Positions 618 to 60,573 are shown, numbered from the stretch's first letter. The stretch is DNA of 64,000 nt from a virus (IMGVR_UViG_3300032092_000001); one strand, 5' to 3'. A program made the numbers and translations. The notes: generated from the letters alone by a model not told the origin.

Positions 618-923
618 TTACTTTTCACATTCCGATGCGTGACTATATACCTCAAATGGAAATGGTATCATAGATTTTAAATATTCTTTAACATTATCTC
701 TAATATACCCTGAACGTAATGATGACCAATTATCATTCAATACCCATTCCTTGTTTAATAGGGTATACACATCAAAAATTGAATCTTCCTCGTCAATTCT
801 ATCTTCATTTAGAAACGCTCTAAAACCACAAATTCTATCATCAGATGAAAAATAACTATTAAGTTGTTCTTCCACCTTTCTGATGATTTTTTTACTTTGT
901 TCTTGTGTGATTTTATATTTCAT
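618..923 (-). CDS. hypothetical protein with MKYKITQEQ leader
   Basis: Paralog-like to 928..1230 (shared ICxF motif). Confidence 0.7.
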   Translation of the reverse strand: MKYKITQEQSKKIIRKVEEQLNSYFSSDDRICGFRAFLNEDRIDEEDSIFDVYTLLNKEWVLNDNWSSLRSGYIRDNVKEYLKSMIPFPFEVYSHASECEK

Positions 924-927
924 TAAA

Positions 928-1230
928 TTAACATTTGTCAGAATAAGGTAATATTGTCAAATAAATATCATACTTATCTTGTATAAAATTTATAGAATCT
1001 TTAATTAAAGATTTTAATTCTTCTTTACCCTCAAAACCTTTTTTACTCATTTTACTATTAACCCATTTCTTATCAATTCTAAGTTTAACAGTTGGGTTAA
1101 TGTCAAAATCTTCATCAGGAATTACCTCAAATTTACAAATCTCATATCTGTTATGAAATTCTTTATTTAAATCTGAGACAATACCGATAAGTATTTTATT
1201 TTTTTGAGATTCGGTGATTACAAGTTTCAT
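928..1230 (-). CDS. hypothetical protein with MKLVITESQ leader
   Basis: ITESQ leader; overlaps the stop of 1227..1343. Confidence 0.7.
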   Translation of the reverse strand: MKLVITESQKNKILIGIVSDLNKEFHNRYEICKFEVIPDEDFDINPTVKLRIDKKWVNSKMSKKGFEGKEELKSLIKDSINFIQDKYDIYLTILPYSDKC

Positions 1231-1343
1231 TTTAATTCCTTAATTTCTCTTAGTACTTTAACGTTATTTGAAATCCTTTTAAGATTTTTTGCGAAGTTAC
1301 GTCTATTACGTTTTGGTTTACCTGCTTTTTTTGCCTTTGCCAT
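1227..1343 (-). CDS. 38-aa basic microprotein (MAKAKKAGKPKRNRRNFAKNLKRI...)
   Basis: Hand-translated, absent from the ORF track; TATTTATA upstream, ATGA coupling downstream. Confidence 0.6.
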   Translation of the reverse strand: MAKAKKAGKPKRNRRNFAKNLKRISNNVKVLREIKELK

Positions 1344-1374
1344 GTGAATATTTTATTATAAATATCCATTAAAT

Positions 1375-1399
1375 AAAAAACCCCAATTAAGGGGTTTTT
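1375..1399 (-). terminator. intrinsic terminator
   Basis: A6-CCCC-AATTAA-GGGG-T5 hairpin. Confidence 0.75.
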
Positions 1400-1401
1400 A
1401 G

Positions 1402-1602
1402 TTAGTTAATACCTTCGTTGAATTTAGTTTCAATCTCTTCACGTTCTTCATCCGTTAAATCCTCGTCGGTTTCAATTTCTTCAATCCAAGTGTTATAACC
1501 ATCACTACGAGCAACGATTGAAAATTCTCTACCGTCTTCTGTTGTTCCATCATATTTTTTTAGACAGAACATCAACATTTCATTTTCAAAATCAATATTC
1601 AT
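1402..1602 (-). CDS. acidic hypothetical protein
   Basis: ORF in a tight minus-strand run. Confidence 0.65.
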   Translation of the reverse strand: MNIDFENEMLMFCLKKYDGTTEDGREFSIVARSDGYNTWIEEIETDEDLTDEEREEIETKFNEGIN

Positions 1603-1604
1603 AA

Positions 1605-1883
1605 TTAGTCAAATCTACATTCTTGTTCTTCACCTGTAATTTTTTCTCTAACTACATCAGACTCACTACATTCTTCTCTTAAACTTTCAAGATACTCGTC
1701 ATCGGTTGGCTTCATTTCATTCCAATTTTCTGAGATGTAATCTTGTATTTCTTCTTCGGTCATTCCATTAAGTTCGGGATAGTCCTCAACATTAATTTCA
1801 ACCGATTCTCTTACAACCATTGTGTTGTAATACTCTACCATTCTGACTGAAATGGTCTTTGGCGTTTCGTTTGTATTTTCCAT
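1605..1883 (-). CDS. acidic hypothetical protein
   Basis: ORF in a tight minus-strand run. Confidence 0.65.
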   Translation of the reverse strand: MENTNETPKTISVRMVEYYNTMVVRESVEINVEDYPELNGMTEEEIQDYISENWNEMKPTDDEYLESLREECSESDVVREKITGEEQECRFD

Positions 1884-1924
1884 AATAATATTTTTAATAA
1901 AAATACATTAGGGAAATTATATTG

Positions 1925-2404: not shown

Positions 2405-2405
2405 A

Positions 2406-2912: not shown

Positions 2913-2924
2913 ATTTATAAATAT
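2911..2924. promoter_or_regulatory. palindromic bidirectional TATTTATA element
   Basis: Perfect palindrome ATATTTATAAATAT filling the gap between two divergent ATGs. Confidence 0.6.
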
Positions 2925-3746: not shown

Positions 3747-3768
3747 TTTAGTATTTTATTTATGTTAT

Positions 3769-4524
3769 TTATCGTCCAAGTAATCTATTGATTATATTAT
3801 TTGTTTTTTTAGTTTCTGCAAATTTTATCCTTGGGATTTTTATATTATTCTCCTTTTCGTATTTGGCGATTAAATCCATAAGAATATTTTTTGGCGCGTA
3901 ATTGGTAAGTTTGTTCAGTAAGTGTTGATAATTATATGGTGTTTTATTTTCACGAGCGTCTGTTCTATAATCAGAGATAAATTTAAAAATTACTTTTTCC
4001 AGTTTAGGATTGTGTTCCTTATAATCAACTTCAATATTTTTATTTTGGACTAAATCAGGAACTTTTAAGGCCGCAATTCCCGTAATTGCCCCAACAATCA
4101 ATGGGATAATACTGGTATCATCGGGTTGATGACGTATATATGACGTGGTCATGTCAAGTAACCCGTATACACCTGAAGTTACCGAAATATTGATTAAATT
4201 TGATAAACTAAGTTTATCAAGTATGTTTTGAAGTCGTTCTCTTTCTTCTTCATTTGCAACTTTAAAATTACCTTTAGAATAAGATATGGTTTCATTAACC
4301 TCTTCACTAAACTGAGATTCAATTTCATCTTCAACAGTTTCTTCAAATCCCTCTTTACCTAACTTATTGTATAACTTACCAAGAAACAATAAGTCGTCAT
4401 TAGACAATGTTTGAATAATCTCCTGTTTAATTTCACTTGCAACTTTTTGTTCTTCGTTCTCACGAATAACACGTTTAACAATGTTTGTCAAATCCGACTC
4501 GGTTAATCTAATAACTTTACTCAT
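3769..4524 (-). CDS. LTESDL-leader protein with a hydrophobic helical hairpin
   Basis: Leader MSKVIRLTESDLTNIVKRVIRE; paralog of 5317..6033. Confidence 0.75.
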   Translation of the reverse strand: MSKVIRLTESDLTNIVKRVIRENEEQKVASEIKQEIIQTLSNDDLLFLGKLYNKLGKEGFEETVEDEIESQFSEEVNETISYSKGNFKVANEEERERLQNILDKLSLSNLINISVTSGVYGLLDMTTSYIRHQPDDTSIIPLIVGAITGIAALKVPDLVQNKNIEVDYKEHNPKLEKVIFKFISDYRTDARENKTPYNYQHLLNKLTNYAPKNILMDLIAKYEKENNIKIPRIKFAETKKTNNIINRLLGR

Positions 4525-4526
4525 AA

Positions 4527-5069
4527 TTATTTTTTACCTAAATCTCTCATCATTTTTGAGATGTTATATGGGTTGTCAAGAGATGATACTCTACCTCTAT
4601 TACTTTCATCACTATAACGAATTTTTGGAGCCCTCTCCGCAACCAAATTGGCAATTTTCTTGATAAATCCTTTAGAAAAAATCTTAATTGGATTTTTACC
4701 ATTTTTACCAGTGTGATTAATAATTATGAGTGGTCTTAACCCTGTATGCTTAAGAACAGATGCCGGATAATATATATCAATATCTAAAAACTCACCAAAA
4801 GGGCTAACTCTAATAACAAAATGTTTGTTGTCATCTGTATCAGGATTATTTGATATTGTTCTAAGTATTTCATAATCACCGCTCTTAACTTTCTCAAGTA
4901 TCCCATTGGCAAGGTATTCCATTGTTGATGATTCATTCTCAACACCAAACAATGAATGGAAAGAACCACTTAATTTATCTCCAAATGTGAACGCGCTATC
5001 TTCTTGGATTACTCGTTTAACGATATTAACTAAATCTGACTCGGTTAATCTGATTATTTTTTCACTCAT
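4527..5069 (-). CDS. LTESDL-leader protein
   Basis: Leader MSEKIIRLTESDLVNIVKRVIQE; TATTTATA at 5083-5090. Confidence 0.75.
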   Translation of the reverse strand: MSEKIIRLTESDLVNIVKRVIQEDSAFTFGDKLSGSFHSLFGVENESSTMEYLANGILEKVKSGDYEILRTISNNPDTDDNKHFVIRVSPFGEFLDIDIYYPASVLKHTGLRPLIIINHTGKNGKNPIKIFSKGFIKKIANLVAERAPKIRYSDESNRGRVSSLDNPYNISKMMRDLGKK

Positions 5070-5316: not shown

Positions 5317-6033
5317 TTATTTAGCTCTTACAAGTCTTTCTTTAGGAGGTCTTCTAAAATTGATATTATTTGTTTTTTCCCAATTCTCAACAAATTGTCT
5401 TACAACTTTTTCAGGGATTCCAATTTCCACCAAATGTTCAATAACATCACTTAATAGTGTGTTTGTTGGTTCAGGGAATTTCTTCAGTTCCTTATCCACC
5501 AATTTCGCCATTCTTGAGTCCTTTAATTTTTCTGGTAGTGGTTTAGATGCAATATTATGTGGGATTCTTGTTAACAAATTTGCCCCAACCATTGCGGCTG
5601 TTACTATTCCCATAACAATACCGGCATCAATGTTTTCTTGGGTTTGTTGTTGCGAATGTAAAAAACTATAGCTAGCTCCTCCAGTTATTAATGAGAATAA
5701 GGTAGACACAAGTCTCGTCATTATTTTTATAGACTCAATTTTATCTTCTTCAGATTCGGTATCAACTGTTATACCTCTTTTTGATAACCCTATTGATTCA
5801 TTAACATTTTCATCATCAATAACATTATCCACAATATCTTCAGTGAAGTTCTTAAACTCATCTTCACCAATAGAGTTGTATAATTTACCGAGTGTTAATA
5901 AATCTTCTTTTGAAATATTATTAAGAATTGTATTGGTAACCTCGTCAGCAATTTGTTGTTCCTCGTTCTCACGAATAACACGTCTGACAATTTTTTCTAA
6001 ATCTGATTCTGTTAATCTAATTACTTTACCCAT
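5317..6033 (-). CDS. LTESDL-leader protein with a hydrophobic helical hairpin
   Basis: Start revised to MGKVIRLTESDL; TATTTAT at 6039-6045. Confidence 0.75.
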   Translation of the reverse strand: MGKVIRLTESDLEKIVRRVIRENEEQQIADEVTNTILNNISKEDLLTLGKLYNSIGEDEFKNFTEDIVDNVIDDENVNESIGLSKRGITVDTESEEDKIESIKIMTRLVSTLFSLITGGASYSFLHSQQQTQENIDAGIVMGIVTAAMVGANLLTRIPHNIASKPLPEKLKDSRMAKLVDKELKKFPEPTNTLLSDVIEHLVEIGIPEKVVRQFVENWEKTNNINFRRPPKERLVRAK

Positions 6034-6631: not shown

Positions 6632-7279
6632 TTATGAATCAAGTTCGGTATATTTACGAAACTTATTTAAAAGTTCCTCATACGTCGATTCAATATCATA
6701 ACGATTTTCACAATCATTTTCTTCAGCCATATCAAGAAGTCCACCAAGTTCTGATTCTAAGTCATGGTACATATCTGAAGCACCTAAGATAGATTGTGTA
6801 TCAGGGGATGAACGTTTAAAATCTCTCATAAAATCTTTAAAAATATATTTCATTTGTGAAATAATTTCATCACAATCAGAACCCATGTCCATGTCAAATT
6901 CATCATCTTCAAATTCTTGTTCTTTTTGTATTTTTGTTTTTACTTTAAAAGGTCTTCCTGATTTCTCTCTGTAGGTATCAAATATTTTTCTACCTGTTTC
7001 ACCTTTACCGAACCATCTTGGTGTGTTTTCATCTTCATCAGGATATTTTTCTCTATAAGAGTCATAATCGTCAAATTCTTCTGTATCAAATTCTTCGGGG
7101 TCTGCAAGTCCATAAAGTTCTTCACTTTTTCTAACGTATCTGTCTTTATCATCAATCCATTCGTCACCTTTGAAATCTTTTTTTCTAGGATTTCCGAATG
7201 AACTATATTTTTGTTCTTCTATAACTTTTTTAACCAATCTTACCAAATCGGTTTCTGTTAATCTTACAACTTTTTTCAT
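6632..7279 (-). CDS. LTETDL-leader acidic protein
   Basis: Leader MKKVVRLTETDLVRLVKKVIEE; TATTTATA at 7296-7303. Confidence 0.75.
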   Translation of the reverse strand: MKKVVRLTETDLVRLVKKVIEEQKYSSFGNPRKKDFKGDEWIDDKDRYVRKSEELYGLADPEEFDTEEFDDYDSYREKYPDEDENTPRWFGKGETGRKIFDTYREKSGRPFKVKTKIQKEQEFEDDEFDMDMGSDCDEIISQMKYIFKDFMRDFKRSSPDTQSILGASDMYHDLESELGGLLDMAEENDCENRYDIESTYEELLNKFRKYTELDS

Positions 7280-7697: not shown

Positions 7698-8006
7698 TTA
7701 CCAAATATTACTAAACTCAAACCCATATGTTTTTTTAATGTAACGACCTATTGCATCAGTAAATTCTTTTGAGTCAATACTAAATAATTCCCACATATTA
7801 TTAAAATATCTTCCGTCAGTATAATAAGTGGAAGTATCAGATTCTGGATGACCGACCAACATCTCACCATTTTGATTAAATAAACCGAACCACGTTTCGC
7901 CGTATCCACCAATATATTTTTCACTCCACTTGGTATCTTTAAACACCTTATCAAAATAAGGTTTCATAATTTTGTCCAACTGTTCAGGTGTGATAACGTA
8001 TTTCAT
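7698..8006 (-). CDS. hypothetical protein with MKYVITPEQ leader
   Basis: Start revised; TATTTAT upstream. Confidence 0.65.
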   Translation of the reverse strand: MKYVITPEQLDKIMKPYFDKVFKDTKWSEKYIGGYGETWFGLFNQNGEMLVGHPESDTSTYYTDGRYFNNMWELFSIDSKEFTDAIGRYIKKTYGFEFSNIW

Positions 8007-8596: not shown

Positions 8597-8872
8597 TTAA
8601 TCTAATTTCAAAGTATGTTTAACAAATTCAACAAGAGGTTTTTCATATTTAAGGTATGAATCCCAATAATCTTGTTCAAACCCAAATTCATCTATATCAG
8701 AAAATTTTCCTTCCTTTATAAATTCTCTAACCGCATCATAAACCGAAGATTCAATATCCCCATTATATTCAATTAGCTCTGTAACATCTTCAATTAATTT
8801 ATTTAAGTCTTCAATAGAAAATCTTCTACGAATAAAGGACGCCAGTTGTGAGTGATTTATAACGTATTTCAT
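8597..8872 (-). CDS. hypothetical protein with MKYVINHSQ leader
   Basis: Start revised; FIRRRF..D.L motif resembles 12459..12737. Confidence 0.65.
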   Translation of the reverse strand: MKYVINHSQLASFIRRRFSIEDLNKLIEDVTELIEYNGDIESSVYDAVREFIKEGKFSDIDEFGFEQDYWDSYLKYEKPLVEFVKHTLKLD

Positions 8873-9365: not shown

Positions 9366-9656
9366 TTATATATAATTAACGTCGTGTGGACCCAAACCTT
9401 TACCCCATCCTTGTGGAGCAACAATGAAAATAATCTGTTTACCATCAGAGATTAATGAAACATTCCCCTTTGTATAATATTGGTAACCTGTATATTTTTC
9501 TATTAATTTATTCACCACATCTCTTTGTTTCCCTGTTAATTTATTAACATCACCCAAAACATATCCTTTCTTAATAAGAATATCATTTTGTTCCGAAATA
9601 ACCCTTTTAACTATTTTAACTAAATCCGATTCCGTTAATCTTACAACTTTTTTCAT
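9366..9656 (-). CDS. LTESDL-leader protein
   Basis: Leader present; TATTTATA at 9673-9680. Confidence 0.75.
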   Translation of the reverse strand: MKKVVRLTESDLVKIVKRVISEQNDILIKKGYVLGDVNKLTGKQRDVVNKLIEKYTGYQYYTKGNVSLISDGKQIIFIVAPQGWGKGLGPHDVNYI

Positions 9657-12458: not shown

Positions 12459-12737
12459 ATGAAATACATTATCACAGAATCACAGTTAGATACATTTTTA
12501 CTTAGGAGGTTTACAATGGATGAATTGGAATCACTTAGGGATGATTATAACTATATTATGGATGACGAAGATTTTGAAGACTCTGCCGATAGAGATGACT
12601 ACGCTTATGAACTACTTGAAAAGTTCATTGATAGACATAGAAGTGAGGAGTTTTTACAATATGATAATGACACTGAATTCTATGAAAACCGTGCCGATTA
12701 TATTAGGGCGTTACTTAAATTCTTACATTCTAATTAA
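12459..12737 (+). CDS. ITESQ-leader acidic protein
   Basis: MKYIITESQL; TATTTAT upstream. Confidence 0.7.
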   Translation: MKYIITESQLDTFLLRRFTMDELESLRDDYNYIMDDEDFEDSADRDDYAYELLEKFIDRHRSEEFLQYDNDTEFYENRADYIRALLKFLHSN

Positions 12738-12741
12738 TTAA

Positions 12742-12749
12742 TATTTATA
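12742..12749 (+). promoter_or_regulatory. phage TATTTATA promoter-like element (representative copy, probably late)
   Basis: Also at 13522, 16357, 16702 (+) and 5083, 7296, 9673, 19756, 50569, 51693, 59185, 61764 (-), 4-16 nt before ATG. Confidence 0.7.
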
Positions 12750-12753
12750 TATA

Positions 12754-13107
12754 ATGAAATACCTTATCACCGAATCACAAATTGATAGAGTAGTGTCCAT
12801 ATACTTGAATAATCAGGACTTTGTGATATATGACAACAAGAAGAAATTCAATAATTATATATATTTCTTAAACAGTGAGTCAGATAGGGAATCGCAGATT
12901 AGTGTTTATACTAACAACGCTTTTGGTGAAGTTAGGAATTGGGTGTTTGTAAATTCTGATTTGATTGAGGAATTATCTACCTTCTTCTCCATAGATAGAT
13001 TGGATTGTTTGAATATAATCAAAATGTGGGTTAATAATACTTTGGGTATTAGTGATAGTACGATTTGGGATGGTCCATATGATTACAGATTAATGGTTAA
13101 CGAATAA
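12754..13107 (+). CDS. ITESQ/DNQDF paralog family member
   Basis: MKYLITESQ..YLNNQDF...STFFS...WV. Confidence 0.8.
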   Translation: MKYLITESQIDRVVSIYLNNQDFVIYDNKKKFNNYIYFLNSESDRESQISVYTNNAFGEVRNWVFVNSDLIEELSTFFSIDRLDCLNIIKMWVNNTLGISDSTIWDGPYDYRLMVNE

Positions 13108-13517
13108 TGAAAGTAATAATCACTGAAAGTCAAGGTAAGAAAACTCTTAAACCATTATTGGCGAAATTTGGTATGCGTACTCTGTGTAAAATGACAGGTA
13201 AGTCAGTTAAAGATGTTATTAATGAAGCAGGTATTAAGGGAACTAAAGAAGATATTATCTTTCTAACAAAAACTATAATTGAGAATGACCTCTCATCCGT
13301 CTTAACATATTGTAATTATAATATCATACCCACTCAGTACTCTATGGATTTGGTTGTCTATATACCTAAGCCGGCTCCTGAAAATGTGGGAAGGTATATG
13401 TTTGACCAAGGTACAAGGAATGTGTATAGAGATGCTATCTCCGAGGCTTTATATAAATTAGGTGGCGGTTTAATTAAAGGTCATAATATTGAGGTTCATA
13501 ATACAGGTAACTGTTAA
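13107..13517 (+). CDS. ITESQ-leader protein
   Basis: MKVIITESQ; translationally coupled. Confidence 0.7.
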   Translation: MKVIITESQGKKTLKPLLAKFGMRTLCKMTGKSVKDVINEAGIKGTKEDIIFLTKTIIENDLSSVLTYCNYNIIPTQYSMDLVVYIPKPAPENVGRYMFDQGTRNVYRDAISEALYKLGGGLIKGHNIEVHNTGNC

Positions 13518-13533
13518 CTAATATTTATATATA

Positions 13534-13866
13534 GTGAAATATCTTATAACCGAATCACAGATAGACAAAGTAATCTTTAGGTACTTGGACAATCAGGACT
13601 TTATTCCAATAGAAAAGGGTGATAATATATACTTTGTAAATTCAGAAGGAGATGAATATGCTCAAATCAGATATGATAAAGATGATGGTTGGTGTTATAT
13701 ATCTTGGAAGTTAGTTAATGAAATTTATTCTTTCTTTTCTTTGGAAGAATATGATTCCGAACAAGTTATTGGTAGGTGGGTTGAGAATACCCTACAGATG
13801 AGGGTCACTGACACCGTGCCCATTTTTAATCCGGATAATCCTTCGTTGATAATACCCTCTAACTAA
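13534..13866 (+). CDS. ITESQ/DNQDF paralog family member
   Basis: GTG start; ends in a repeat-spacer-partial repeat unit. Confidence 0.8.
   Translation: MKYLITESQIDKVIFRYLDNQDFIPIEKGDNIYFVNSEGDEYAQIRYDKDDGWCYISWKLVNEIYSFFSLEEYDSEQVIGRWVENTLQMRVTDTVPIFNPDNPSLIIPSN
13780..13866 (+). repeat. CRISPR-geometry unit: 36-nt repeat, 29-nt spacer, partial repeat
   Basis: GTTGAGAATACCCTACAGATGAGGGTCACTGACACC at 13780-13815; GTTGATAATACCCTCTAACTAA from 13845. Confidence 0.7.
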
Positions 13867-15382: not shown

Positions 15383-15700
15383 ATGAAGATTGAGAATAAA
15401 GTTAATGCAATTGTAAAACTAATTAATACATTATACTCACCTGACGAGATTAAAGTTAGAAAGAGTGAATATGATGATGAGATATTAATTGATGTTTACT
15501 TTTCTCATATTGATGATTCATATATAACCAACTCTGACTATTATGACCTTAAAAAATTAAAACAACAAAATTTTGAGGGTGAGATTAGAAGGACGATACA
15601 GGACTTCTTGAGTATTAAAACAAGCGGATTAAACCCACATACAGGTTTCTCCCCATACGAGGTTCACGGTATAACAATAGACGTAAGATTAACTAAATGA
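15383..15700 (+). CDS. hypothetical protein (start revised to MKIENKV)
   Basis: Tandem TATCTTTG (15362) and TATTTAT (15370) upstream. Confidence 0.65.
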   Translation: MKIENKVNAIVKLINTLYSPDEIKVRKSEYDDEILIDVYFSHIDDSYITNSDYYDLKKLKQQNFEGEIRRTIQDFLSIKTSGLNPHTGFSPYEVHGITIDVRLTK

Positions 15701-16026
15701 AATACCTTATAACAGAATCACAAATAGATAGAATAATCTTTAGGTATCTTGACAATCAGGACTTTATTCTTGTTGGTAATGGTCTCAGTTTATTTTTTAT
15801 TAATTCTGAGGGTGATGAATCAGCTCAAATTAGATATAATAAAGATGATGGTTGGTGTTATATAAACCACGATTTAATTAGGGAGATTACCTCCTTCTTT
15901 TCTATCAAATCATATGAAGCTGAAAAGATTATCAGTAAATGGGTTGAATATGTTTTGGAGATGGAAGTTACTAACATCGGTAAACCTGGATATGTGACCT
16001 CAAACACACTATACTATTCTATATGA
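15697..16026 (+). CDS. ITESQ/DNQDF paralog family member
   Basis: Aligns by eye with 13534..13866. Confidence 0.8.
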   Translation: MKYLITESQIDRIIFRYLDNQDFILVGNGLSLFFINSEGDESAQIRYNKDDGWCYINHDLIREITSFFSIKSYEAEKIISKWVEYVLEMEVTNIGKPGYVTSNTLYYSI

Positions 16027-16334
16027 AATACCTTATAACAGAATCACAATTTGACAAAGTAATATTTAGATACTTAGACAATCAAGATTTTATTCAGATA
16101 GAAAAAGGAAATAAAATATACTTTGTAAATTCAGAAGGGGATGAATATGCTCAAATCAGATATGATAAAGAATATGGTTGGTGTTATATACATTACAAGT
16201 TAGTTGATGAAATTTCTACCTTCTTTTCTTTGGTACGAGATGATTCTAAAGAAGTTATTGGTAGATGGGTTGAGAATACCATCCAGATGAGGGTCACTCA
16301 CACCATAATATGGGTATATATCCAGGTGGAATAG
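16023..16334 (+). CDS. ITESQ/DNQDF paralog family member
   Basis: Stop codon falls inside the spacer of the terminal unit. Confidence 0.8.
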   Translation: MKYLITESQFDKVIFRYLDNQDFIQIEKGNKIYFVNSEGDEYAQIRYDKEYGWCYIHYKLVDEISTFFSLVRDDSKEVIGRWVENTIQMRVTHTIIWVYIQVE

Positions 16335-16356
16335 GTTGAGAATACCCTCTAACTAA
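16269..16356 (+). repeat. CRISPR-geometry unit: 36-nt repeat, 30-nt spacer, partial repeat
   Basis: Repeat 16269-16304 is 33/36 identical to 13780-13815; GTTGAGAATACCCTCTAACTAA from 16335. Confidence 0.7.
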
Positions 16357-16368
16357 TATTTATATATA

Positions 16369-16701: not shown

Positions 16702-16714
16702 TATTTATAATAAC

Positions 16715-17367: not shown

Positions 17368-17379
17368 TATTTATTCTAT

Positions 17380-49895: not shown

Positions 49896-50555
49896 TTAAA
49901 ATTTCACTCGTTGTCCACATTCATCGTTAGCACCACAAAAATCACAACATCCGGCACTTCCACGACAACATGTTTTACCCCTTCTAAAACATGCTATACA
50001 TCCAGTTGGTGAACTTTCACTAACTTCTTCATCCATTTCAATCTCATAGATGGTTTCATCAATTTCTTCCACGTCCATTTCAATTTCATAGATAATTTCA
50101 TCAGATTCAAATATTGGCGAACCGCCTGGAATCTTTTTACCAGTTCTTGGGTCCATACACCCTTGTGAGGTACAAGTGCCGACCGGACAACATTTATTAT
50201 TTGACGAACAGTAAGTCATTCCACCCAAACATCCGGGTACTTTAGATGGTGTTGAGGTAGGTTTTGTTAGAGCTTCGTCCATGTCTTCAGTTTCTTTCAA
50301 AGCAGTTGTAGTTTCACATTTACCATTATTACATTTTTGTGGAAATTTGCAATCTTTGCTAGTATTACAACCCGCAGCTTCTTTTATAGCACTATCGGAC
50401 TTGCTTTCATTTATCAAAACATTGTTTATCAATTTAGACATTTCTCTTTCAGATAAAGATTGTCTTTTTAGTTCAGACTCCTCTTTAATTACATTTTTGT
50501 GTTGTGAGAGTATCCTTTGTTTTTCAGATTCAGATATAACTATTCTTTTTTTCAT
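49896..50555 (-). CDS. leader protein with three Cys-rich modules
   Basis: 4-, 6- and 8-Cys modules separated by Glu-rich linkers. Confidence 0.75.
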   Translation of the reverse strand: MKKRIVISESEKQRILSQHKNVIKEESELKRQSLSEREMSKLINNVLINESKSDSAIKEAAGCNTSKDCKFPQKCNNGKCETTTALKETEDMDEALTKPTSTPSKVPGCLGGMTYCSSNNKCCPVGTCTSQGCMDPRTGKKIPGGSPIFESDEIIYEIEMDVEEIDETIYEIEMDEEVSESSPTGCIACFRRGKTCCRGSAGCCDFCGANDECGQRVKF

Positions 50556-51076: not shown

Positions 51077-51679
51077 CTATTTTTCCCATTTTTGAGCATT
51101 TCTACAATCACAATAACAAGGTTGTTTTGGTGGACAAGTAACCACACCTGCAATACGGTCTGAACCACAATTACATGAATCACCAGGTCTTCCATATGCC
51201 TCGTCTAACTCATCTAATTCATCATTCATTTCTGAAATAATTTTAGTATATAATTTTTTTAATGAGTTTTCTTTCACCGTGGTACTAGTAGTTGATGTAC
51301 TAATAGGTTTTGGAGTGGTTGACGTAGTAGTCGTTGTTGTTGGAGCGGGTTTTGGTAATTTTTGTTCTCTTCCAGGTACTTGCATTCCAAAACTCCATGA
51401 CGTACACCCACAACCTGAAGCTTGATTAACATCCGCTAAACTCCACCCTGTGTATACACCAGCATTTGTGGGACATCCAGGAATACTACCTCCGTTACAT
51501 GCCCAACATAATTTTTGAGTTCCGTTAAAAGATTGTCCACAGTTATTTAACTGATTACCAGATGCGGGACCTGATAGAGCTTCTTTAACTAATTTATTTT
51601 TGGAACTATTTTGTTCTTTAATGACTCTCTTAATGATATTCATCAAATCAGATTCTTTCAGTTTAACTATTTTTTTCAT
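51077..51679 (-). CDS. LKESDL-leader protein with two Cys-rich modules
   Basis: Thr-rich linker between modules. Confidence 0.75.
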   Translation of the reverse strand: MKKIVKLKESDLMNIIKRVIKEQNSSKNKLVKEALSGPASGNQLNNCGQSFNGTQKLCWACNGGSIPGCPTNAGVYTGWSLADVNQASGCGCTSWSFGMQVPGREQKLPKPAPTTTTTTSTTPKPISTSTTSTTVKENSLKKLYTKIISEMNDELDELDEAYGRPGDSCNCGSDRIAGVVTCPPKQPCYCDCRNAQKWEK

Positions 51680-51724: not shown

Positions 51725-51997
51725 TTAATAAGGATTTACAGGATTATGTGGGTATATTACCTCACAAGTCGTGTTGTGTTGACAATAAGTCCCCTGTACA
51801 CACTGGTACCCTTGAGGACAACATTGAGGCCCACAAGGTACCTCCTTTGTTGCACATCCGTTATGTTTAACCGGTTCAGTCTTAGTTCCTTTAACAATTA
51901 AATTTTTAGTAGGACATGATTGTCGGGTAGATTCATTAATAACTCGTTTAATGATACCAACTAAATCAGATTCTCTTAATGTTATAATTTTTTTCAT
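51725..51997 (-). CDS. LRESDL-leader Cys-rich peptide
   Basis: Start revised to MKKIITLRES; CGPQCCPQGYQC. Confidence 0.75.
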   Translation of the reverse strand: MKKIITLRESDLVGIIKRVINESTRQSCPTKNLIVKGTKTEPVKHNGCATKEVPCGPQCCPQGYQCVQGTYCQHNTTCEVIYPHNPVNPY

Positions 51998-52005: not shown

Positions 52006-52242
52006 TTATCTCCCATAACAAACACAAGTCCTTGCATGTTGAGCACTAGCATACCATCCATTTGCATTATTACAGACAGTCTCGCCAGTCTCAGGTAAAG
52101 TAGTTGTCGCAGGTTGTTTACATCTTTTTCTAGTTGCAGTATTTGTATTTCCAACCGAGACATTACTTTTAGTTTGTTCTTTAACAACTTTATTTATTAA
52201 TTTAACCAAATCAGACTCAGTTAATTTTACAATTTTTTTCAT
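52006..52242 (-). CDS. LTESDL-leader Cys-rich peptide
   Basis: CNNANGW...CVCYGR. Confidence 0.75.
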   Translation of the reverse strand: MKKIVKLTESDLVKLINKVVKEQTKSNVSVGNTNTATRKRCKQPATTTLPETGETVCNNANGWYASAQHARTCVCYGR

Positions 52243-52254: not shown

Positions 52255-52530
52255 TTATTTACCTCCTCTTCCACCTTTAAAACACTTACATGTTAGAACT
52301 CCATTAGCCGCAGTCGCCGCAGAGTCAGTACCCCACCCATTCGCAGAATTACAATTATAAGTTGGTTCTCCACTTGAGCTATTATAACTCACAGTATAAT
52401 AAGGGTCCTTACATAATCCTCCAGCTAATTTTTGTGGAGTTGCAGATGGTTTAACTGATTCTATCTCATTTATAACTCTTTTAATCATATTAGTTAGTTG
52501 TGATTCAGTTAATTTTACAATTTTTTTCAT
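52255..52530 (-). CDS. LTESQL-leader Cys-rich peptide
   Basis: KLAGG-LCKDP...CNSANGW...CKCFKGG. Confidence 0.75.
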   Translation of the reverse strand: MKKIVKLTESQLTNMIKRVINEIESVKPSATPQKLAGGLCKDPYYTVSYNSSSGEPTYNCNSANGWGTDSAATAANGVLTCKCFKGGRGGK

Positions 52531-52934: not shown

Positions 52935-53213
52935 TTATCTAGTTTTTCCACCTTTAGAACAAGCACAAACCAGTGGTACGGGAGGATTGCTACAAGCATT
53001 ACCAACAACTGCGCTACCTTGAGCAGCTGTCCATCCATTTGACCCATTGCACTGAAAAGTACATCCATTTCCAGTGTACACTATCATAGGGTCTTTACAT
53101 GTTCCGCCAGCTAATTTAGTAACTAATGACGATACAGATGGTTTTGACTCTTTAATTACTTTCTTGATGATATTCATCAAATCTGATTCTGTTAATTTTA
53201 CAACTTTTTTCAT
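52935..53213 (-). CDS. LTESDL-leader Cys-rich peptide
   Basis: KLAGG-TCKDP...CNGSNGW...CACSKGG. Confidence 0.75.
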   Translation of the reverse strand: MKKVVKLTESDLMNIIKKVIKESKPSVSSLVTKLAGGTCKDPMIVYTGNGCTFQCNGSNGWTAAQGSAVVGNACSNPPVPLVCACSKGGKTR

Positions 53214-55269: not shown

Positions 55270-55668
55270 TTAACTAATTGTCTTAATTTTTACACCATAA
55301 GGTAATTCATGTCCGTAATTGTGTTCAAACCATTTCAGAAAAGGTTCACGCCAGTGGTTACCAAACATTCCATCCAACTGATTTTTAATATCAGGTTCGT
55401 CAATACTCAATATTGGTGATTCTTTTTTTCTAATCATACCAAATTGATTATCCATCCAATAATTCTCCAAATAAATTGTGAATTGTCTATCATAATCATC
55501 ATTGTAAAATCCAATAGAGTCAATGTGACTTATTTTTTCAGGGAAGTTAACTTCTTCCATATCATCAAAATAACCCACCGACATGTTTGATGGTAATAAA
55601 TTGTCAATATACTTGTAGATTTTATCAGATATGGTTTGTTTCTGACTTTCAGTTATTACGTATTTCAT
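55270..55668 (-). CDS. ITESQ-leader protein
   Basis: MKYVITESQKQ. Confidence 0.7.
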   Translation of the reverse strand: MKYVITESQKQTISDKIYKYIDNLLPSNMSVGYFDDMEEVNFPEKISHIDSIGFYNDDYDRQFTIYLENYWMDNQFGMIRKKESPILSIDEPDIKNQLDGMFGNHWREPFLKWFEHNYGHELPYGVKIKTIS

Positions 55669-56771
55669 AATAATGCGTATAATCTAGTTAAACTTCTAAA
55701 CAACTCGTCACCCCTTCTATCAAATACTTTCTCCCAATGTTTAAAGAATAACTTAGGGTTATCTAATAGTTTCTGACTCATGCCACGGAAAGGGTTACTG
55801 GTCATTCCATTATCTCTAGCATGCTCAACAATTCGTTTCAAAATTTCATTCCAACTCTCAAGAGCAAATTGGGTATGTTGTTGAGCCATTGGTTTTCTAA
55901 AGATGTCCTCCAAACTTTGCATACGACTCAAATCATTAATTAACTTATCAGCCGAGAATGATTTTAACATTTTAACATCTCTGTAAGTATCAGTATCTTT
56001 AATAGAATCAATGAAGTCATTATAGTTCTCAATTTTTTTACTTTTAAGAACTTTTAATGATTGAGGAATTCTAGCCTGATGCTCAAACCTTAAAGACAAA
56101 TAAAGAATATGTAAAAAATAATTGAACTCCTTATTGAAGTCCTTTTTAAGAGCCCCCGCCAAAGTGTTTAAAGTATGTTCCTTACCAAAACCAACTTGAC
56201 CTGACTTTGTATATCTCTTAAATAACTGATAAGAATGGAATACCTCGTGAGCAATTACTGAATCTAAATTTGGGCTTAGTGTATCAAGGTCATCCCAATT
56301 TGAATCCCCCATAGTAATGTCAAATTCAAAGTCACCACTACTATAAGTTTTACCTAAACCTTTCTTATCTTCAAGTCCCATCTTTTCAGAGTTAAAGACA
56401 TGAGTAGCATTAATGGTAGGTTTTTTTATATTGTTAATATCTAACGCTTCGTCAGGGTAAATGTTAAAACTTATTGTAACTTTATTCTTATACATAGGAA
56501 ACTTATCCCACAACTCCTTATTGAAGAGTGGAGAGTTCTTAACATACTTCCAAGATTTTTCTTTACCTACGTTTATATTACCTGACCTATACTCGGTATC
56601 ACCGTATCCCTTAACGTCAGCTTCACCAACTTTAAGTTTTTTACCACTATCTTTAAATGCCTGAATCTCATCTTTAACCAAGTTGGTTAAGATGTCAACC
56701 ATCATTTCAATATCATCAGGAACACCGGCAGCTTCCTTAATAATCTGTTTTATTCTTGTTTGAGTTATCAC
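55665..56771 (-). CDS. leader-bearing HExxH zincin-like protein
   Basis: RIKQIIKEA leader; VIAHEVFHSYQ...FEHQARI. Confidence 0.65.
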   Translation of the reverse strand: MITQTRIKQIIKEAAGVPDDIEMMVDILTNLVKDEIQAFKDSGKKLKVGEADVKGYGDTEYRSGNINVGKEKSWKYVKNSPLFNKELWDKFPMYKNKVTISFNIYPDEALDINNIKKPTINATHVFNSEKMGLEDKKGLGKTYSSGDFEFDITMGDSNWDDLDTLSPNLDSVIAHEVFHSYQLFKRYTKSGQVGFGKEHTLNTLAGALKKDFNKEFNYFLHILYLSLRFEHQARIPQSLKVLKSKKIENYNDFIDSIKDTDTYRDVKMLKSFSADKLINDLSRMQSLEDIFRKPMAQQHTQFALESWNEILKRIVEHARDNGMTSNPFRGMSQKLLDNPKLFFKHWEKVFDRRGDELFRSLTRLYALL

Positions 56772-58080: not shown

Positions 58081-58108
58081 AAAAAACCCCATCCAAGGAC
58101 AGGGTTTA
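58081..58108 (-). terminator. intrinsic terminator
   Basis: AAACCC...GGGTTT. Confidence 0.6.
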
Positions 58109-58126
58109 TTAATTTTTGTTTTAAGA

Positions 58127-58480
58127 TTACTTGGTATAAGTTCTCAAACAATGTGCTGTCCAAGCCGCGACTCCAAGGAAGATTGGCATTAATATTCCAT
58201 CCCCTCCGAACATTGCAATGTGAACCGCAACTGCTCCTGACATAACAGAAGACAAAACCAACGCGCCATAGACTGATGTTCTTGGGATACAAAGAGCAAT
58301 GACTCCTGCAACTTCCATAACCCCAACAAGTGCCATATATGGTAACATGTTCATTGCGGTAAAGTTTGCGGTCATAGCTTCAGAGCCGGTGATTTTTGAC
58401 AATCCACCCATTCCGAGCATAAAGGTAACGATTGCGGTTAACAACCATCCCAAGTTTTTAAGTGTTAAATAATTTTTCAT
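58127..58480 (-). CDS. DoxX-like membrane protein
   Basis: Four hydrophobic helices; GVMEVAGVIAL.IPRT..YGALVL...GAVAVH. Confidence 0.8.
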   Translation of the reverse strand: MKNYLTLKNLGWLLTAIVTFMLGMGGLSKITGSEAMTANFTAMNMLPYMALVGVMEVAGVIALCIPRTSVYGALVLSSVMSGAVAVHIAMFGGDGILMPIFLGVAAWTAHCLRTYTK

Positions 58481-58525
58481 AATCCAAGTATAAGATATTA
58501 ACTTTGGATTGTCAATAAATATGGT

Positions 58526-58876
58526 TTAGAAAGACTTGGTCCATCTCAACATATACTTACCATTAACTTTGTCAAATGGCTCAAAACTAACTCTGAAATT
58601 ACCTATATTACCATAGACCGGATAGATTGGGAATTCCCATCCATCAGATTTAATATGAAATGCATTAACACCAACAGGAGATTTCTTCAAAATTGATATA
58701 AAATCATCTGTCTTAACTTCAGTTCCAGCTTTAAATGGGAATCCCTTTGGGTTATTGTCAGGTATTTTAATGGTTTTAGGGACAATTTGTCCTTTGTCAG
58801 TTATCTGTTCTTCAATAACTCTTTTAACAATTTTAACTAAATCCGACTCTGTAAGTTTAATTACTTTTTTTATCAT
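58526..58876 (-). CDS. LTESDL-leader protein
   Basis: MIKKVIKLTESDLVKIVKRVIEE. Confidence 0.75.
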   Translation of the reverse strand: MIKKVIKLTESDLVKIVKRVIEEQITDKGQIVPKTIKIPDNNPKGFPFKAGTEVKTDDFISILKKSPVGVNAFHIKSDGWEFPIYPVYGNIGNFRVSFEPFDKVNGKYMLRWTKSF

Positions 58877-59181
58877 TTTTTAAGTGTTAAATATGTACCA
58901 TTAATTGACCAAGTTCCTTTATCTGGAACTCCCATCATATTTTTAAGTTGTATCTTTATTGATTTTTTGTTTTTATCGTAGTCAGGGTGGAAAAATACGA
59001 TACCACTCCCACCTCCAATTTTTAATACAAAATTACCTTTTGTTAAATCCTTAACACCTAATAGATTTTTAATTTTACTTGTTATTGCACCATCATTTAT
59101 TTTTTTTTCCAATGATTCATTAATAACCCCTTTAATAATATTAACCAAATCAGATTCTGTAAGTTTAATAATTTTTCCCAT
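58873..59181 (-). CDS. LTESDL-leader protein
   Basis: Start revised to MGKIIKLTES; TATTTATA at 59185-59192. Confidence 0.75.
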   Translation of the reverse strand: MGKIIKLTESDLVNIIKGVINESLEKKINDGAITSKIKNLLGVKDLTKGNFVLKIGGGSGIVFFHPDYDKNKKSIKIQLKNMMGVPDKGTWSINGTYLTLKK

Positions 59182-59203
59182 ACATATAAATATGTTTATA
59201 AAT

Positions 59204-59229
59204 AAAAAACCCCTCACATTGGAGGGGTT
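59204..59229 (-). terminator. intrinsic terminator
   Basis: AACCCCTC-ACATTG-GAGGGGTT. Confidence 0.8.
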
Positions 59230-60220
59230 AATGAAACCTTGTTGATATTTTATTTAGAATTTTGTTCCGCAGGTTGGACAAAATTTATGTGTATCTTTTT
59301 TTCGTCTGATTCCACAATTTGTACAATACAATACATTCACTTCCTTTGCAGTAAATGGTTTTTCTGACAATGGTAAGATTCTCCATGTTGAATAGTTTGA
59401 TGGGAATGAATTAAAATCCATGTTAACTGTTTCAAACTCTTGTTTTGAATCTGAACCTTTCTCAATTCTACCTGTTTCTTTGAACCTGTCAGTTTGTAAT
59501 GACTTTTTTAGGTTTGGAGATGTGTTATTATTAACACTACTGATAGGTGCAGAATAGTTTGTATAAAAAGCATTTGAGTCGCCAGCAAAAGTATTACTAT
59601 TGTTTGATACCATATTAACGTTTGTGTTATAGTACTTAGCATTCTCACCCCAAGTTATTTTATTATTACCACCTGTAGTTGTAGTGTTTATATCACCATA
59701 CCAATTATCATTGGTCCAAGTACTATTAGTACCGGCCAACGTTATAGTTGGGTTATTTAAATAAACATTCTCGTCATAGAATTCAACGACAACCTCACCA
59801 TTGTTTTTGATTGCCTCTTGAACTTCCTTTGATGATGAGTTAACCTCATACACCTCAAATTTGAACTTCCTTGCTTCGTTCAAATATCTTTCCAAGAATA
59901 CTCTCTGACCAGGTCGGACAATAATTCCACCACCTGATAGGTAATTCCCATTGATTTTTATTTTTGCTAAAACTGAATTTGATTTTGGGTTGAAGATTTC
60001 TACCTCAAATTCTTCCCCATCTTTAAGATAAACGCTTGAGCCGTTTTGTTTTAATCTTTGTTTCCTTGTCGTAATATGAGCCGACGGAAACTTCTTGAGT
60101 TCTGTGTAATACATTTTTTCCTTATTTTATTTTTTATGTTATTGAACCCCACTTCGTTGGTATTTCTCCAACTCAACTGTCTCATCGGACAGGTGGACCT
60201 CATCAACAAGGTTTCATTAA
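59228..60220. repeat. perfect 19-bp inverted repeat bracketing one gene
   Basis: TTAATGAAACCTTGTTGAT at 59228-59246; its reverse complement at 60202-60220. Confidence 0.8.
59254..60114 (-). CDS. hypothetical protein with a C-terminal zinc ribbon
   Basis: CTNCG...KFCPTCGTK; Asn/Thr-rich linker. Confidence 0.8.
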   Translation of the reverse strand: MYYTELKKFPSAHITTRKQRLKQNGSSVYLKDGEEFEVEIFNPKSNSVLAKIKINGNYLSGGGIIVRPGQRVFLERYLNEARKFKFEVYEVNSSSKEVQEAIKNNGEVVVEFYDENVYLNNPTITLAGTNSTWTNDNWYGDINTTTTGGNNKITWGENAKYYNTNVNMVSNNSNTFAGDSNAFYTNYSAPISSVNNNTSPNLKKSLQTDRFKETGRIEKGSDSKQEFETVNMDFNSFPSNYSTWRILPLSEKPFTAKEVNVLYCTNCGIRRKKDTHKFCPTCGTKF

Positions 60221-60252
60221 TAACTATAAGGTAATTTGTTTTTTTGTGAAGG

Positions 60253-60573
60253 TTATTTATAATAATATACAACTATGTCCGATTGAACATCAACCATAGT
60301 ATACTCAGCCCCAAGTTTATTCTCAACCCAGTGAGCGATTGCCGAAATAGAATCATTATTATCCAACGAGAAAAAACTAGAAATTTCTTTCATCAAATCT
60401 CTACTAATGGTAATCCAACCTCTAATTGGGTTATATTTAATCTGAGCATATAAATCTTCCTTTGAATTAACGAAAAACGTATACTCACCATAGTTCTTCT
60501 GAATGAAGTCCTGATTGTCAAGGTATTTAAATATTACCTTTTCTAGTTGTGATTCTGTTATAAGATATTTCAT
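60253..60573 (-). CDS. ITESQ/DNQDF paralog family member (dispersed copy)
   Basis: MKYLITESQLEKVIFKYLDNQDF...SSFFSL...WVEN. Confidence 0.8.
   Translation of the reverse strand: MKYLITESQLEKVIFKYLDNQDFIQKNYGEYTFFVNSKEDLYAQIKYNPIRGWITISRDLMKEISSFFSLDNNDSISAIAHWVENKLGAEYTMVDVQSDIVVYYYK

What the first reader, a model, noticed from the sequence alone, without database searches (positions are those of the whole stretch)
618..60573. About 35 unrelated proteins share short (L/I)-x-E N-terminal leaders: a candidate capsid-targeting and protease-processing tag
Seen: several leader dialects on unrelated cargoes. MKKxx(R/K)L(T/K/R)E(S/T)(D/Q)Lxx(I/L/M)(V/I)xxV(I/V)xE occurs in 12 ORFs (3769, 4527, 5317, 6632, 9366, 51077, 51725, 52006, 52255, 52935, 58526, 58873). 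MKYxITESQ-like leaders occur in about 17 ORFs. LQExIRRILxEE-like leaders occur at 18802, 19217, 21684, 39320, 55665 and internally at 19746 and 20611. Nearly all follow TATTTAT(A) or are coupled to a gene that does. Established: T4 internal proteins carry a short N-terminal capsid-targeting sequence removed by prohead protease gp21, which cuts after Glu in (L/I)-x-E. Inference: this is a portable tag that loads a large arsenal into the head for injection.
Basis: partly seen in the sequence, partly recalled or inferred. Interest (0 to 1): 0.8.

Follow-up and report, generated by a model that had tools for sequence, protein, structure and literature searches.

The report
Portable head-loading leader tags on phage proteins
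About a third of the proteins in this stretch of an uncultivated 285-kb T4-like lake phage start with one of a few short interchangeable leader peptides that look like phage T4's "load into the head, then cut off" tag, so the phage may deliver dozens of different proteins with its DNA, though no experiment shows this yet.

Summary
Twelve proteins carry the 22-residue leader MKKVVRLTESDLVKIVKRVIxE, always 6-7 residues after a Met and nowhere else in six frames. Seventeen carry MKY(L/I)ITESQ. Four to six carry MxLQExIRRILxE-type leaders. Unbiased clustering puts 29 of 108 proteins into one N-terminal cluster. The claim "unrelated" holds for leader A. It is overstated for MKY, where 8 of 17 are one paralogue family.

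Selection acts on the peptide (pS 0.62, pN 0.20). The tag is portable. A leader-A profile hits 7,419 protein clusters worldwide, including thioredoxin and GNAT fusions. One cargo family carries a different leader, swapped exactly at E22-Q23. About one in ten hits has internal copies, like a polyprotein.

The same genome has a T4 head module with a gp21-type protease (Peptidase_S77). Its capsid protein has LINE|A aligned with T4 gp23's LTE|A cut site. TATTTAT also precedes the terminase, protease and scaffold genes.

Best reading, at about 50%: these are capsid-targeting propeptides removed by the prohead protease. Packaging and cleavage are untested.

This scan noted similar tags before on other DNA, including this same LTESDL leader in another genome. 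I file it as a new, very large variant of the T4 capsid-targeting system.

The parts
9366..9656 (-). Leader-A protein (96 aa), the reference example. Leader is residues 1-22, MKKVVRLTESDLVKIVKRVISE. It has its own TATTTAT 17 nt before the ATG.
   Evidence: AlphaFold model: residues 1-8 coil, helix 9-23 at pLDDT about 60-70, compact body at pLDDT 87-91. One homologue of the body carries a different leader (P0027).
3769..4524 (-). Leader-A protein (251 aa), coupled to 4527. The body is related only to 5317.
4527..5069 (-). Leader-A protein (180 aa), own TATTTAT
5317..6033 (-). Leader-A protein (238 aa). Start corrected to the ATG 5 nt behind TATTTAT (MGKVIRLTESDL).
6632..7279 (-). Leader-A protein (215 aa), own TATTTAT, acidic body with no known family
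51077..51679 (-). Leader-A protein (200 aa), Cys-rich body (12 Cys), own TATTTAT
51725..51997 (-). Leader-A protein (90 aa, start corrected), Cys-rich body, coupled to 52006/52255
52006..52242 (-). Leader-A protein (78 aa), coupled to 52255
52255..52530 (-). Leader-A protein (91 aa; LTESQL variant), own TATTTAT. The body is related to 52935.
52935..53213 (-). Leader-A protein (92 aa), own TATTTAT, directly downstream of the phage Hsp70 gene
58526..58876 (-). Leader-A protein (116 aa), coupled to 58873
58873..59181 (-). Leader-A protein (102 aa). Start corrected to the ATG 4 nt behind TATTTAT (MGKIIKLTESDL).
49896..50555 (-). Leader-D protein (219 aa): MKKRIVISESEKQRILSQH...VIKEE, with a Cys-rich body (18 Cys). 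This is the same dialect as MxKxFIITEEEKxxI..LY in the relative G001.
618..1230 (-). Two leader-B genes (618-923 MKYKITQEQ; 928-1230 MKLVITESQ), with unrelated bodies, at the end of an operon headed by TATTTAT at 2923
7698..8006 (-). Leader-B-like protein (MKYVITPEQL), ATG 6 nt behind TATTTAT
8597..8872 (-). Leader-B-like protein (MKYVINHSQL), ATG 6 nt behind TATTTAT
12459..13866 (+). Four leader-B genes (12459, 12754, 13107, and 13534 with a GTG start). 12754 and 13534 belong to the paralogue family; 12459 and 13107 have unrelated bodies.
15697..18089 (+). Seven leader-B genes in tandem (15697, 16023, 16369, 16715, 17068, 17380, 17748). Five are paralogues (MKYLITESQxDKVIFKYLDNQDF...); 16715 and 17380 have unrelated bodies.
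55270..55668 (-). Leader-B protein (132 aa), unrelated body
60253..60573 (-). Leader-B protein (106 aa), a distant copy of the paralogue family
18802..19215 (-). Leader-C protein: MNLQETIRRILRE|E
19217..19744 (-). Protein with two leaders in tandem (MDLQEHIRRILKEETN + MKLQEQISRIKSMMGVINE), then a DUF6576 domain. Own TATTTAT.
19746..21672 (-). Two longer proteins (19746-20618, 20611-21672) with internal leader-C copies (ESIVRVLREE at about residue 205; LKEHIRQVLQEE at about residue 150)
21684..22901 (-). 405-aa protein with a hybrid leader MKELIRKVLTESRE, ATG 5 nt behind TATTTAT
39320..39901 (+). 193-aa protein with a leader-C-like start MEVLIRQILRE, ATG 6 nt behind TATTTAT. Membership is moderate.
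55665..56771 (-). Doubtful member. A leader-like IKQIIKE exists only if a GTG start is used; there is no motif match.

Best explanation
These are modular N-terminal propeptides, in several interchangeable 'dialects', on late-expressed accessory proteins of a T4-superfamily jumbo phage. By its relatives, the phage infects Bacteroidota.

Proposed mechanism, all steps inferred:
1. The genes are transcribed from the same TATTTAT late promoters as the head genes.
2. The leader forms a short helix. In leader A this is residues 8-23, started by the LTESDL cap. The helix docks the protein onto the scaffolding core while the prohead assembles.
3. The gp21-type serine protease then cuts after Glu in (L/I/V)-x-E. 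In leader A the candidate sites are LTE|S and VIxE|Q; in leader B, ITE|S; in leader C, ILxE|E. This frees the body inside the head.
4. The bodies are mostly small proteins of no known family and include enzymes such as thioredoxin and GNAT. They are ejected with the DNA as a fast-evolving host-takeover or counter-defence set.
5. Internal leader copies mark polyproteins that are cut into units.

Shown: the tags, their portability, peptide-level selection, the protease and T4 head module in the same genome, conserved T4-type cut sites in the capsid protein and protease, and the shared promoter.

Inferred: docking, cleavage, packaging and ejection.
For: (1) Twelve exact leader-A copies, always N-terminal, none elsewhere. 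Conservation ends at E22.

(2) In 118 diverse representatives only E9 and E22 are invariant. Each has L/I two residues before it.

(3) Bodies are unrelated: 11 BLASTP clusters among 13. In metagenomes the bodies include thioredoxin, GNAT and PG_binding.

(4) Leader swap: P0027 has the 9366 body but leader D, joined exactly at EQ|N.

(5) Synonymous sites are near saturation while the peptide is kept (pS 0.62, pN 0.20).

(6) The same contig carries the head module. L001 matches window 1-19656 at 100% identity. The contig also carries TerL, a T4 portal, Peptidase_S77, an acidic 487-aa scaffold candidate and a Gp23-type capsid protein. The protease keeps the LNHP and SSRG motifs and the N-terminal LIE of T4 gp21.

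(7) T4 gp23 FLTE|AEIGG aligns with HLINE|AATT of this capsid protein. LINE|(A/S) is kept in five relatives, while the residues after it vary.

(8) T4's own cut sites are LTE (gp23) and ITE (IPI). The IPII/III tag is MKTYQEFIAE (review PMC9026906).

(9) TATTTAT precedes the terminase, the gene after portal, the protease, the scaffold, large tail-sized proteins and a lysozyme-like gene. Leader genes are enriched for it (odds ratio about 6, p about 1e-5), and all are headed by it or coupled to it.

(10) Conserved genes inside the head module themselves carry leaders A and C (MKKIRLTESQLVGIIKQCINE, MEKLIKKILKEE).

(11) Nine of ten large leader-bearing IMG/VR contigs have Peptidase_S77. The tenth also lacks a portal, so it is a fragment.

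(12) Most leader-A bodies are small and basic (pI 8.3-9.9 for 9 of 13). By my own recollection this resembles the T4 internal proteins.
Against: - There is no virion proteomics, no cleavage data and no cultured relative. The nearest isolate's capsid protein is only 42% identical.
- (L/I/V)-x-E is common by chance in a Glu/Ile/Leu-rich proteome.
- The conserved L-T-E-S-D/Q-L fits a textbook helix N-cap with hydrophobic staple (my own knowledge). It therefore need not be a protease site.
- Leader A is twice the length of T4's tag and has no detectable sequence homology to it.
- The number of tagged genes far exceeds any documented internal-protein set: about 35 in 64 kb, and about 29 by strict patterns in the complete relative G001, plus further dialect clusters.
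- Leader-B bodies are mostly acidic.
- Several bodies are Cys-rich or contain membrane-like segments, which suggests an exposed or extracellular location.
Confidence: 0.5

Rival explanations
1. The leader is a shared docking helix for some other hub and is not a cleaved capsid-loading signal. It might anchor variable small domains on the outside of the virion, as head decoration or fibre adaptors. Or it might recruit the proteins to a phage or host factor, such as the phage's own Hsp70.
For: - LTESDL plus the following residues model as a capped helix separate from the body.
- Internal copies work without a free N-terminus.
- Several bodies are Cys-rich, one has a peptidoglycan-binding domain and some have membrane-like stretches.
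- An Hsp70 gene sits inside the leader-A island.
- Late expression fits any virion component.
Against: - The only invariant residues are two Glu, each with L/I at P3. This is the T4 protease rule.
- The break in homology and the leader swap fall exactly after E22-Q23.
- Thirty or more different surface adaptors would be unprecedented.
- Enzymes such as thioredoxin and GNAT are more plausible as delivered cargo than as surface proteins.
Confidence: 0.25
2. Common descent rather than a portable tag. The proteins would be old paralogues whose N-terminal helix is part of the fold and stayed conserved while the rest diverged beyond recognition.
For: - Eight of 17 MKY proteins are demonstrable paralogues whose similarity runs through the whole protein.
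- 3769/5317 and 52255/52935 are also paralogous pairs.
- Most bodies have no known family, so remote homology cannot be excluded.
Against: - The same leader sits on thioredoxin, GNAT and PG_binding folds.
- One body family occurs with two different leaders.
- DUF6576 occurs behind both leader A and leader C.
- Second bodies differ behind the same first body and internal leader (P0167, P0171, P0181).
Confidence: 0.1
3. The leader is an expression or shuffling cassette. The conserved 5' coding stretch would serve translation of the leaderless late mRNAs, or act as a DNA homology patch for recombination, with no role for the peptide itself.
For: - TATTTAT lies only 4-6 nt before the ATG in 54 of 130 cases, so many mRNAs are probably leaderless.
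- Leaders mark the junctions where bodies are exchanged.
- Earlier first-reader notes on two other genomes saw near-identical 5' nucleotides.
Against: - In this window synonymous sites are near saturation while the amino acids are kept. Up to six codons are used per conserved position.
- Internal copies lie far from any start codon.
- Conservation extends over 22 codons and has helix periodicity.
Confidence: 0.07

Closest known systems
Phage T4 capsid targeting sequence (CTS) of internal proteins IPI, IPII, IPIII and Alt, removed by prohead protease gp21 (review PMC9026906)
   Same: - A short N-terminal tag on otherwise unrelated proteins.
- It ends in (L/I)-x-E. T4 IPI is cut at ITE|A and gp23 at LTE|A; here the sites would be ITE|S and LTE|S.
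- A gp21-family protease and a T4-type head module are in the same genome.
- Tagged genes cluster in plastic regions of the genome.
- Small basic bodies are common among leader-A proteins.
   Different: - No sequence homology to MKTYQEFIAE.
- Leader A is 22 residues with a capped helix and two candidate cut sites.
- There are at least four dialects.
- About 35 tagged genes lie in 64 kb, against four in T4.
- 7,419 clusters worldwide carry one dialect.
- Internal copies occur.
- Packaging and cleavage are untested.
[quoted passage not shown]
   Same: The leader is kept while bodies are exchanged between related phages. This was read as an arms race with host defences.
   Different: The scale and the phage lineage. 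Here it is a Bacteroidota-infecting jumbo phage group whose capsid protein is only about 29% identical to T4 gp23.
Propeptides of head and ejection proteins in giant phages phiKZ and SPN3US, cut by gp21-like proteases (PMC5694885, PMC7411985, PMC10052503; abstracts seen)
   Same: Jumbo phages whose heads hold about 50 proteins and a large mass of ejection proteins, processed after Glu by a T4-like prohead protease.
   Different: By my own knowledge those sites are (S/A/G)-x-E. No single portable leader shared by dozens of unrelated proteins has been described for them.
Encapsulin cargo-loading peptides
   Same: A short portable peptide that directs diverse enzymes into an HK97-fold shell.
   Different: They are usually C-terminal, are not cleaved, and have no protease or DNA delivery. 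This is an analogy only.

Membership tests
T4-type CTS / internal-protein system | gp21-family prohead protease (Peptidase_S77) encoded by the same genome | tested here: met
   P0077 lies on JGI contig Ga0114354_1000001. That contig also holds window 1-19656 at 100% identity. The LNHP and SSRG motifs align with T4 gp21.
T4-type CTS / internal-protein system | T4-type head module (portal, core/scaffold, gp23-family capsid protein) with positionally conserved (L/I)xE cut sites | tested here: met
   PF07230, PF03420 and PF07068 occur in T4 order. LINE|A aligns with T4 LTE|A and is conserved in five relatives. The protease N-terminal LIE is kept.
T4-type CTS / internal-protein system | Short N-terminal leader ending in (L/I)-x-Glu on the cargo | tested here: met
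   E9 and E22 are invariant in 118 representatives.
T4-type CTS / internal-protein system | Portability: the same leader on unrelated proteins | tested here: met
   Leader swap on one body.
T4-type CTS / internal-protein system | Expression together with head morphogenesis genes | tested here: inconclusive
   The TATTTAT motif is shared with the TerL, protease and scaffold genes. No transcript data exist; no RNA run was listed.
T4-type CTS / internal-protein system | Sequence homology of the leader to the T4 CTS | tested here: not met
   T4 IPII/III have MKTYQEFIAE and IPI has MKTFKEF...ITE. The resemblance is only at motif level (MK-Y, ITE). tblastn of a leader protein finds no isolate phage.
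T4-type CTS / internal-protein system | Leader removed by the protease after Glu | not testable with these tools
   Needs mass spectrometry or an in vitro assay. The complex prediction gave no verdict.
T4-type CTS / internal-protein system | Protein present inside the mature head and ejected into the host | not testable with these tools
   No cultured relative. The nearest isolate's capsid protein is 42% identical.
Sec / lipoprotein signal peptides | Hydrophobic core of 10-20 residues after a basic N-terminus | tested here: not met
   The leaders are charged and moderately amphipathic. The phage has true signal peptides on other proteins, which form a separate cluster.

The most novel reading that the evidence does not exclude
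A multi-dialect 'address code' lets this phage lineage load 50 or more different proteins, roughly a tenth or more of its genes, into the capsid for delivery with the DNA. The load would include enzymes and polyproteins cut into units. The leader would then define, from sequence alone, thousands of injected effector families in uncultivated Bacteroidota phages. That would be the largest delivered-protein repertoire known for any phage.
Probability: 0.3. Interest if true: 0.8.

Novelty: new variant of a known kind. Interest (0 to 1): 0.6.

Why it matters
If the tags work as in T4, a simple sequence profile would list the delivered proteome of an abundant group of uncultivated lake phages. These would be thousands of small proteins of unknown function that reach the host before any phage gene is expressed, and so are prime candidates for counter-defence and takeover factors. 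It would also show that capsid loading can scale from T4's handful of internal proteins to dozens per genome. And it would give a natural set of interchangeable loading tags for packaging foreign proteins in phage heads. If the tags do something else, a 22-residue helix kept on 7,419 unrelated protein clusters is still an unexplained, widespread module worth an experiment.

Tried and rejected
- Megablast of 10 kb against 50,697 isolate phages: no match.
- Exact 30-mer in IMG/VR: none.
- No whole genome is held for the window. Locus L001 could not be used as a handle.
- tblastn of a leader protein against isolate phages: only chance hits at E>=0.1.
- Pfam and PHROGs on ten leader proteins: nothing significant. 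PHROGs on the large proteins at 19746-22919 and 55665: nothing.
- Full-text search for LTESDL: 0 papers. Search for ITESQ: only irrelevant hits.
- Complex prediction of the protease with the 96-aa leader protein: no verdict (score 0.00, controls not run).
- RNA runs holding the stretch: none was listed, so no read mapping was done.
- ESM Atlas look-alikes of 6632-7279: only unnamed viral clusters below 0.8.
- Foldseek of the 9366 model against AlphaFold clusters: best TM 0.42, no telling match.
- Amphipathicity of the leaders is only moderate: 2.5-22% of shuffles reach the observed hydrophobic moment. It was not used as an argument.
- Chance and composition were rejected as explanations.
- A nucleotide-level cassette was rejected for this window.

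Full report
WHAT THE WINDOW IS

The window has about 32% G+C, mostly minus-strand genes and six tRNAs. It has no near match among 50,697 isolate phages.

The 96-aa protein at 9366-9656 occurs letter for letter on contigs of up to 285,295 bp. One of these is JGI Ga0114354_1000001 (284,559 bp). It matches window 1-19656 at 100% identity.

The window carries islands of small unknown genes. These flank a block of metabolic genes that lack the TATTTAT motif: adenylosuccinate synthetase, glutamine synthetase, a nucleotidyl transferase, a PLP enzyme and thymidylate synthase. There is also an Hsp70 gene and a T4-type RNA ligase 1.

Five complete or near-complete IMG/VR relatives of 290-321 kb share 67-91% nucleotide identity in conserved genes. 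All five carry ribosomal protein bS21 on the reverse strand beside the protease. That is the signature of the freshwater, Bacteroidota-infecting bS21 myophages of Chen et al. 2022, which are 293-331 kb with 31-33.7% G+C (PMC9723584). The window's phage is a sister that lacks bS21 at that spot.

THE OBSERVATION

A strict leader-A pattern has 12 matches in the six-frame translation. A profile HMM finds the same 12 at E 1e-15 to 3e-17. The alignment is MKKVVKLTESDLVNIVKRVIxE, with K3, L7, E9, L12, V19 and E22 invariant. Similarity ends abruptly after E22.

MKY(L/I/V)ITESQ starts 17 ORFs. MxLQExIRRILxE starts 18802 and 19217. Weaker forms start 21684 and 39320. Internal copies occur in 19746 and 20611. 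55665 is doubtful. 49896 carries a fourth dialect, IS/TE(E/S)EKxxI.

An unbiased comparison of the first 30 residues of all proteins of >=75 aa gives 158 pairs scoring >=35. Residues 41-70 of the same proteins give 21. Twenty-nine of 108 proteins fall into a single N-terminal cluster that joins A and B through the shared (L/I)TES(D/Q)(L/I) core.

UNRELATED BODIES OR PARALOGUES?

BLASTP of the bodies gives 11 clusters among the 13 A/D proteins. Eight of the MKY proteins are one paralogue family, and the other MKY bodies are singletons. So 'unrelated' is right for A and half right for B.

PEPTIDE OR NUCLEOTIDE CONSERVATION?

Across the 12 leader-A copies pS is 0.62 and pN is 0.20. Conserved positions use up to six codons. 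Selection is therefore on the peptide. It is not on an RNA element, and the pattern is not recent DNA duplication.

PORTABILITY BEYOND THIS GENOME

A word-based search returned the same leader on unrelated bodies, including a complete thioredoxin (P0039).

A profile of the leader was run against 1.84 billion cluster representatives. It gives 7,419 hits at E<=0.001 and 242 at E<=1e-10, almost all starting at residue 1.

In 118 diverse representatives only E9 and E22 are invariant. This is partly circular, because the hits were chosen by the profile.

Pfam recognises few bodies: thioredoxin, GNAT, PG_binding_1 and a weak annexin hit.

IMG/VR holds more than 450 confirmed copies, many on 200-320 kb contigs.

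Three observations show true modularity.
- P0027 is a homologue of the 9366 body (67% identity) but carries leader D (MGKFIITEEDKKHIMGLYEQ) instead of A. The join is exactly at EQ|N.
- The 47-residue DUF6576 domain follows leader A in a head-module gene and leader C in 19217.
- At least 13 of the top 148 hits, by a strict pattern, carry two or three leaders. The internal copies lack a Met, and different second bodies follow the same first body (P0167, P0171, P0181).

All five relatives first tested have Peptidase_S77 at 80-88 bits. Four of five further leader-bearing contigs have it too. The fifth also lacks a portal, so it is a fragment.

The orthologue P0077 was recognised by its longest contig of 285,295 bp. 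It lies on the same JGI contig as the window. The gene order there is T4-like: terminase, T4 portal, two small proteins, protease, DUF4494, an acidic 487-aa scaffold candidate, then a gp23-family capsid protein.

The protease keeps the LNHP and SSRG motifs. It also keeps the N-terminal LIE that the T4 review notes as a likely gp21 self-cleavage site.

T4 gp23 is cut at FLTE|AEIGG. An alignment places HLINE|AATT of this capsid protein in register with that site. LINE|(A/S) is conserved in five relatives, while the residues after it vary. The protease rule therefore appears to be conserved in this lineage.

From the T4T record, the T4 tags are MKTYQEFIAE|A (IPII, IPIII) and MKTFKEF...ITE|A (IPI). 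Leader B (MKYLITE|S) resembles them in length and in the ITE site. Leader A has LTE|S and VIxE|Q.

CO-REGULATION

TATTTAT is by far the commonest T5A2 heptamer in the 35 nt before starts (127). Heptamers that do not overlap the extended motif give 14-36, and those that do give 48-74. The motif lies 4-6 nt (54 of 130 cases) or 13-17 nt (46 of 130) before the ATG.

It precedes the terminase, the gene after portal, the protease and the scaffold in the window's genome. In the complete relative G001 it also precedes the portal, proteins of 664-1,875 aa and a lysozyme-like gene. It is rare in the metabolic block of the window. I read it as the late promoter; this is an inference.

Leader genes are enriched for it (odds ratio about 6, p about 1e-5). 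All 31 tested have it or are tightly coupled to a gene that has it.

Two conserved genes inside the head module themselves start with leaders A and C.

STRUCTURE

The 9366 protein models as coil 1-8, helix 9-23 at modest confidence, and a compact well-predicted body. From my own knowledge, L-T-E-S-D/Q-L is a canonical helix start: a hydrophobic staple (L7, L12) plus a capping box (T8, D/Q11). That explains part of the conservation without invoking a protease, and it suits a docking helix.

MOST LIKELY MECHANISM

The established T4 model has two steps (PMC9026906). The propeptide gives affinity for the prohead core, and gp21 then removes it. This window shows the same logic on a much larger scale and with several dialects. 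I put about 50% on targeting plus cleavage.

The main rival, at about 25%, is a docking helix for another hub, such as the virion surface or a chaperone. It is favoured by the Cys-rich bodies and membrane-like segments and by the adjacent Hsp70 gene. Pure paralogy gets about 10% and an expression or shuffling cassette about 7%. Both are weakened.

COMPARISON AND NOVELTY

The concept is known. The T4 review itself suggests that the CTS may be an evolutionary device of T4-like phages. Giant phages such as SPN3US pack about 50 head proteins (abstracts).

What is not in the literature I could search:
- this leader;
- its dialects;
- its number per genome;
- its spread over 7,419 clusters.

This scan has noted similar tags in other uncultivated T4-like phages, and the same LTESDL leader in another genome. 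Those are unchecked AI notes and are not independent evidence.

I file this as a new variant of a known kind. Function rests on analogy.

Noticed in passing
window-wide, e.g. 12742-12756, 16357-16371, 59181-59192; also G001 (L091-L105): The TATTTAT-to-ATG distance is bimodal, at 4-6 nt and 13-17 nt. Many late mRNAs of this Bacteroidota phage are therefore probably leaderless or have leaders of under 10 nt. No Shine-Dalgarno sequence is visible.
   Followed up: partly
L090:9403-9513 versus G001:66251-66406 (L108): Five relatives carry ribosomal protein bS21 on the reverse strand between the portal-adjacent gene and the protease. The window's genome has only a 111-nt spacer with a terminator-like hairpin there, and no bS21 match in L090 or the window.
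   Followed up: partly
window 53294-55156 (-): A full-length phage Hsp70/DnaK (863 bits) is embedded between leader-A and leader-B genes. An FKBP-type gene lies just upstream of the window (L001 gene list).
   Followed up: no
window 36692-38722 (-): A 529-aa membrane protein matches phage 'kinase' families at its C-terminus. It is followed by a 143-aa protein that looks like a response-regulator receiver (MIDSILLVDDED...). This may be a phage-encoded two-component pair.
   Followed up: no
window 51077-53213 (-) and 49896-50555 (-): A run of small leader-tagged proteins has Cys-rich bodies (4-18 Cys). Metagenomic relatives P0190 and P0202 string three or four leader-like segments, each followed by a Cys-rich unit, into one chain.
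   Followed up: partly
window 50656-51066 (+), 34041-34481 (-), 46760-47029 (-), 52594-52860 (-): Other proteins have classical hydrophobic signal or lipoprotein-type N-termini. In G001 these form a cluster separate from the leaders, so the phage uses two distinct kinds of N-terminal signal.
   Followed up: partly
L090:16849-17355 (-), window 19217-19744 (-), L001:1-440: The 47-residue Pfam family DUF6576 sits directly behind the leader in at least two proteins, one with leader A and one with leader C (L090:16849-17355 and window 19217-19744). Its function is unknown.
   Followed up: partly
window 56950-57114, 62095-62331, 63797-63884 (-): Six tRNA genes in three groups: Leu-taa and Met-cat; Tyr, Glu and a second Met-cat; Thr-ggt.
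   Followed up: no
window 60573-61088 (-): A Peptidase_C92 (permuted papain-like amidase) gene with its own TATTTAT heads the operon that contains the leader-B gene 60253.
   Followed up: no
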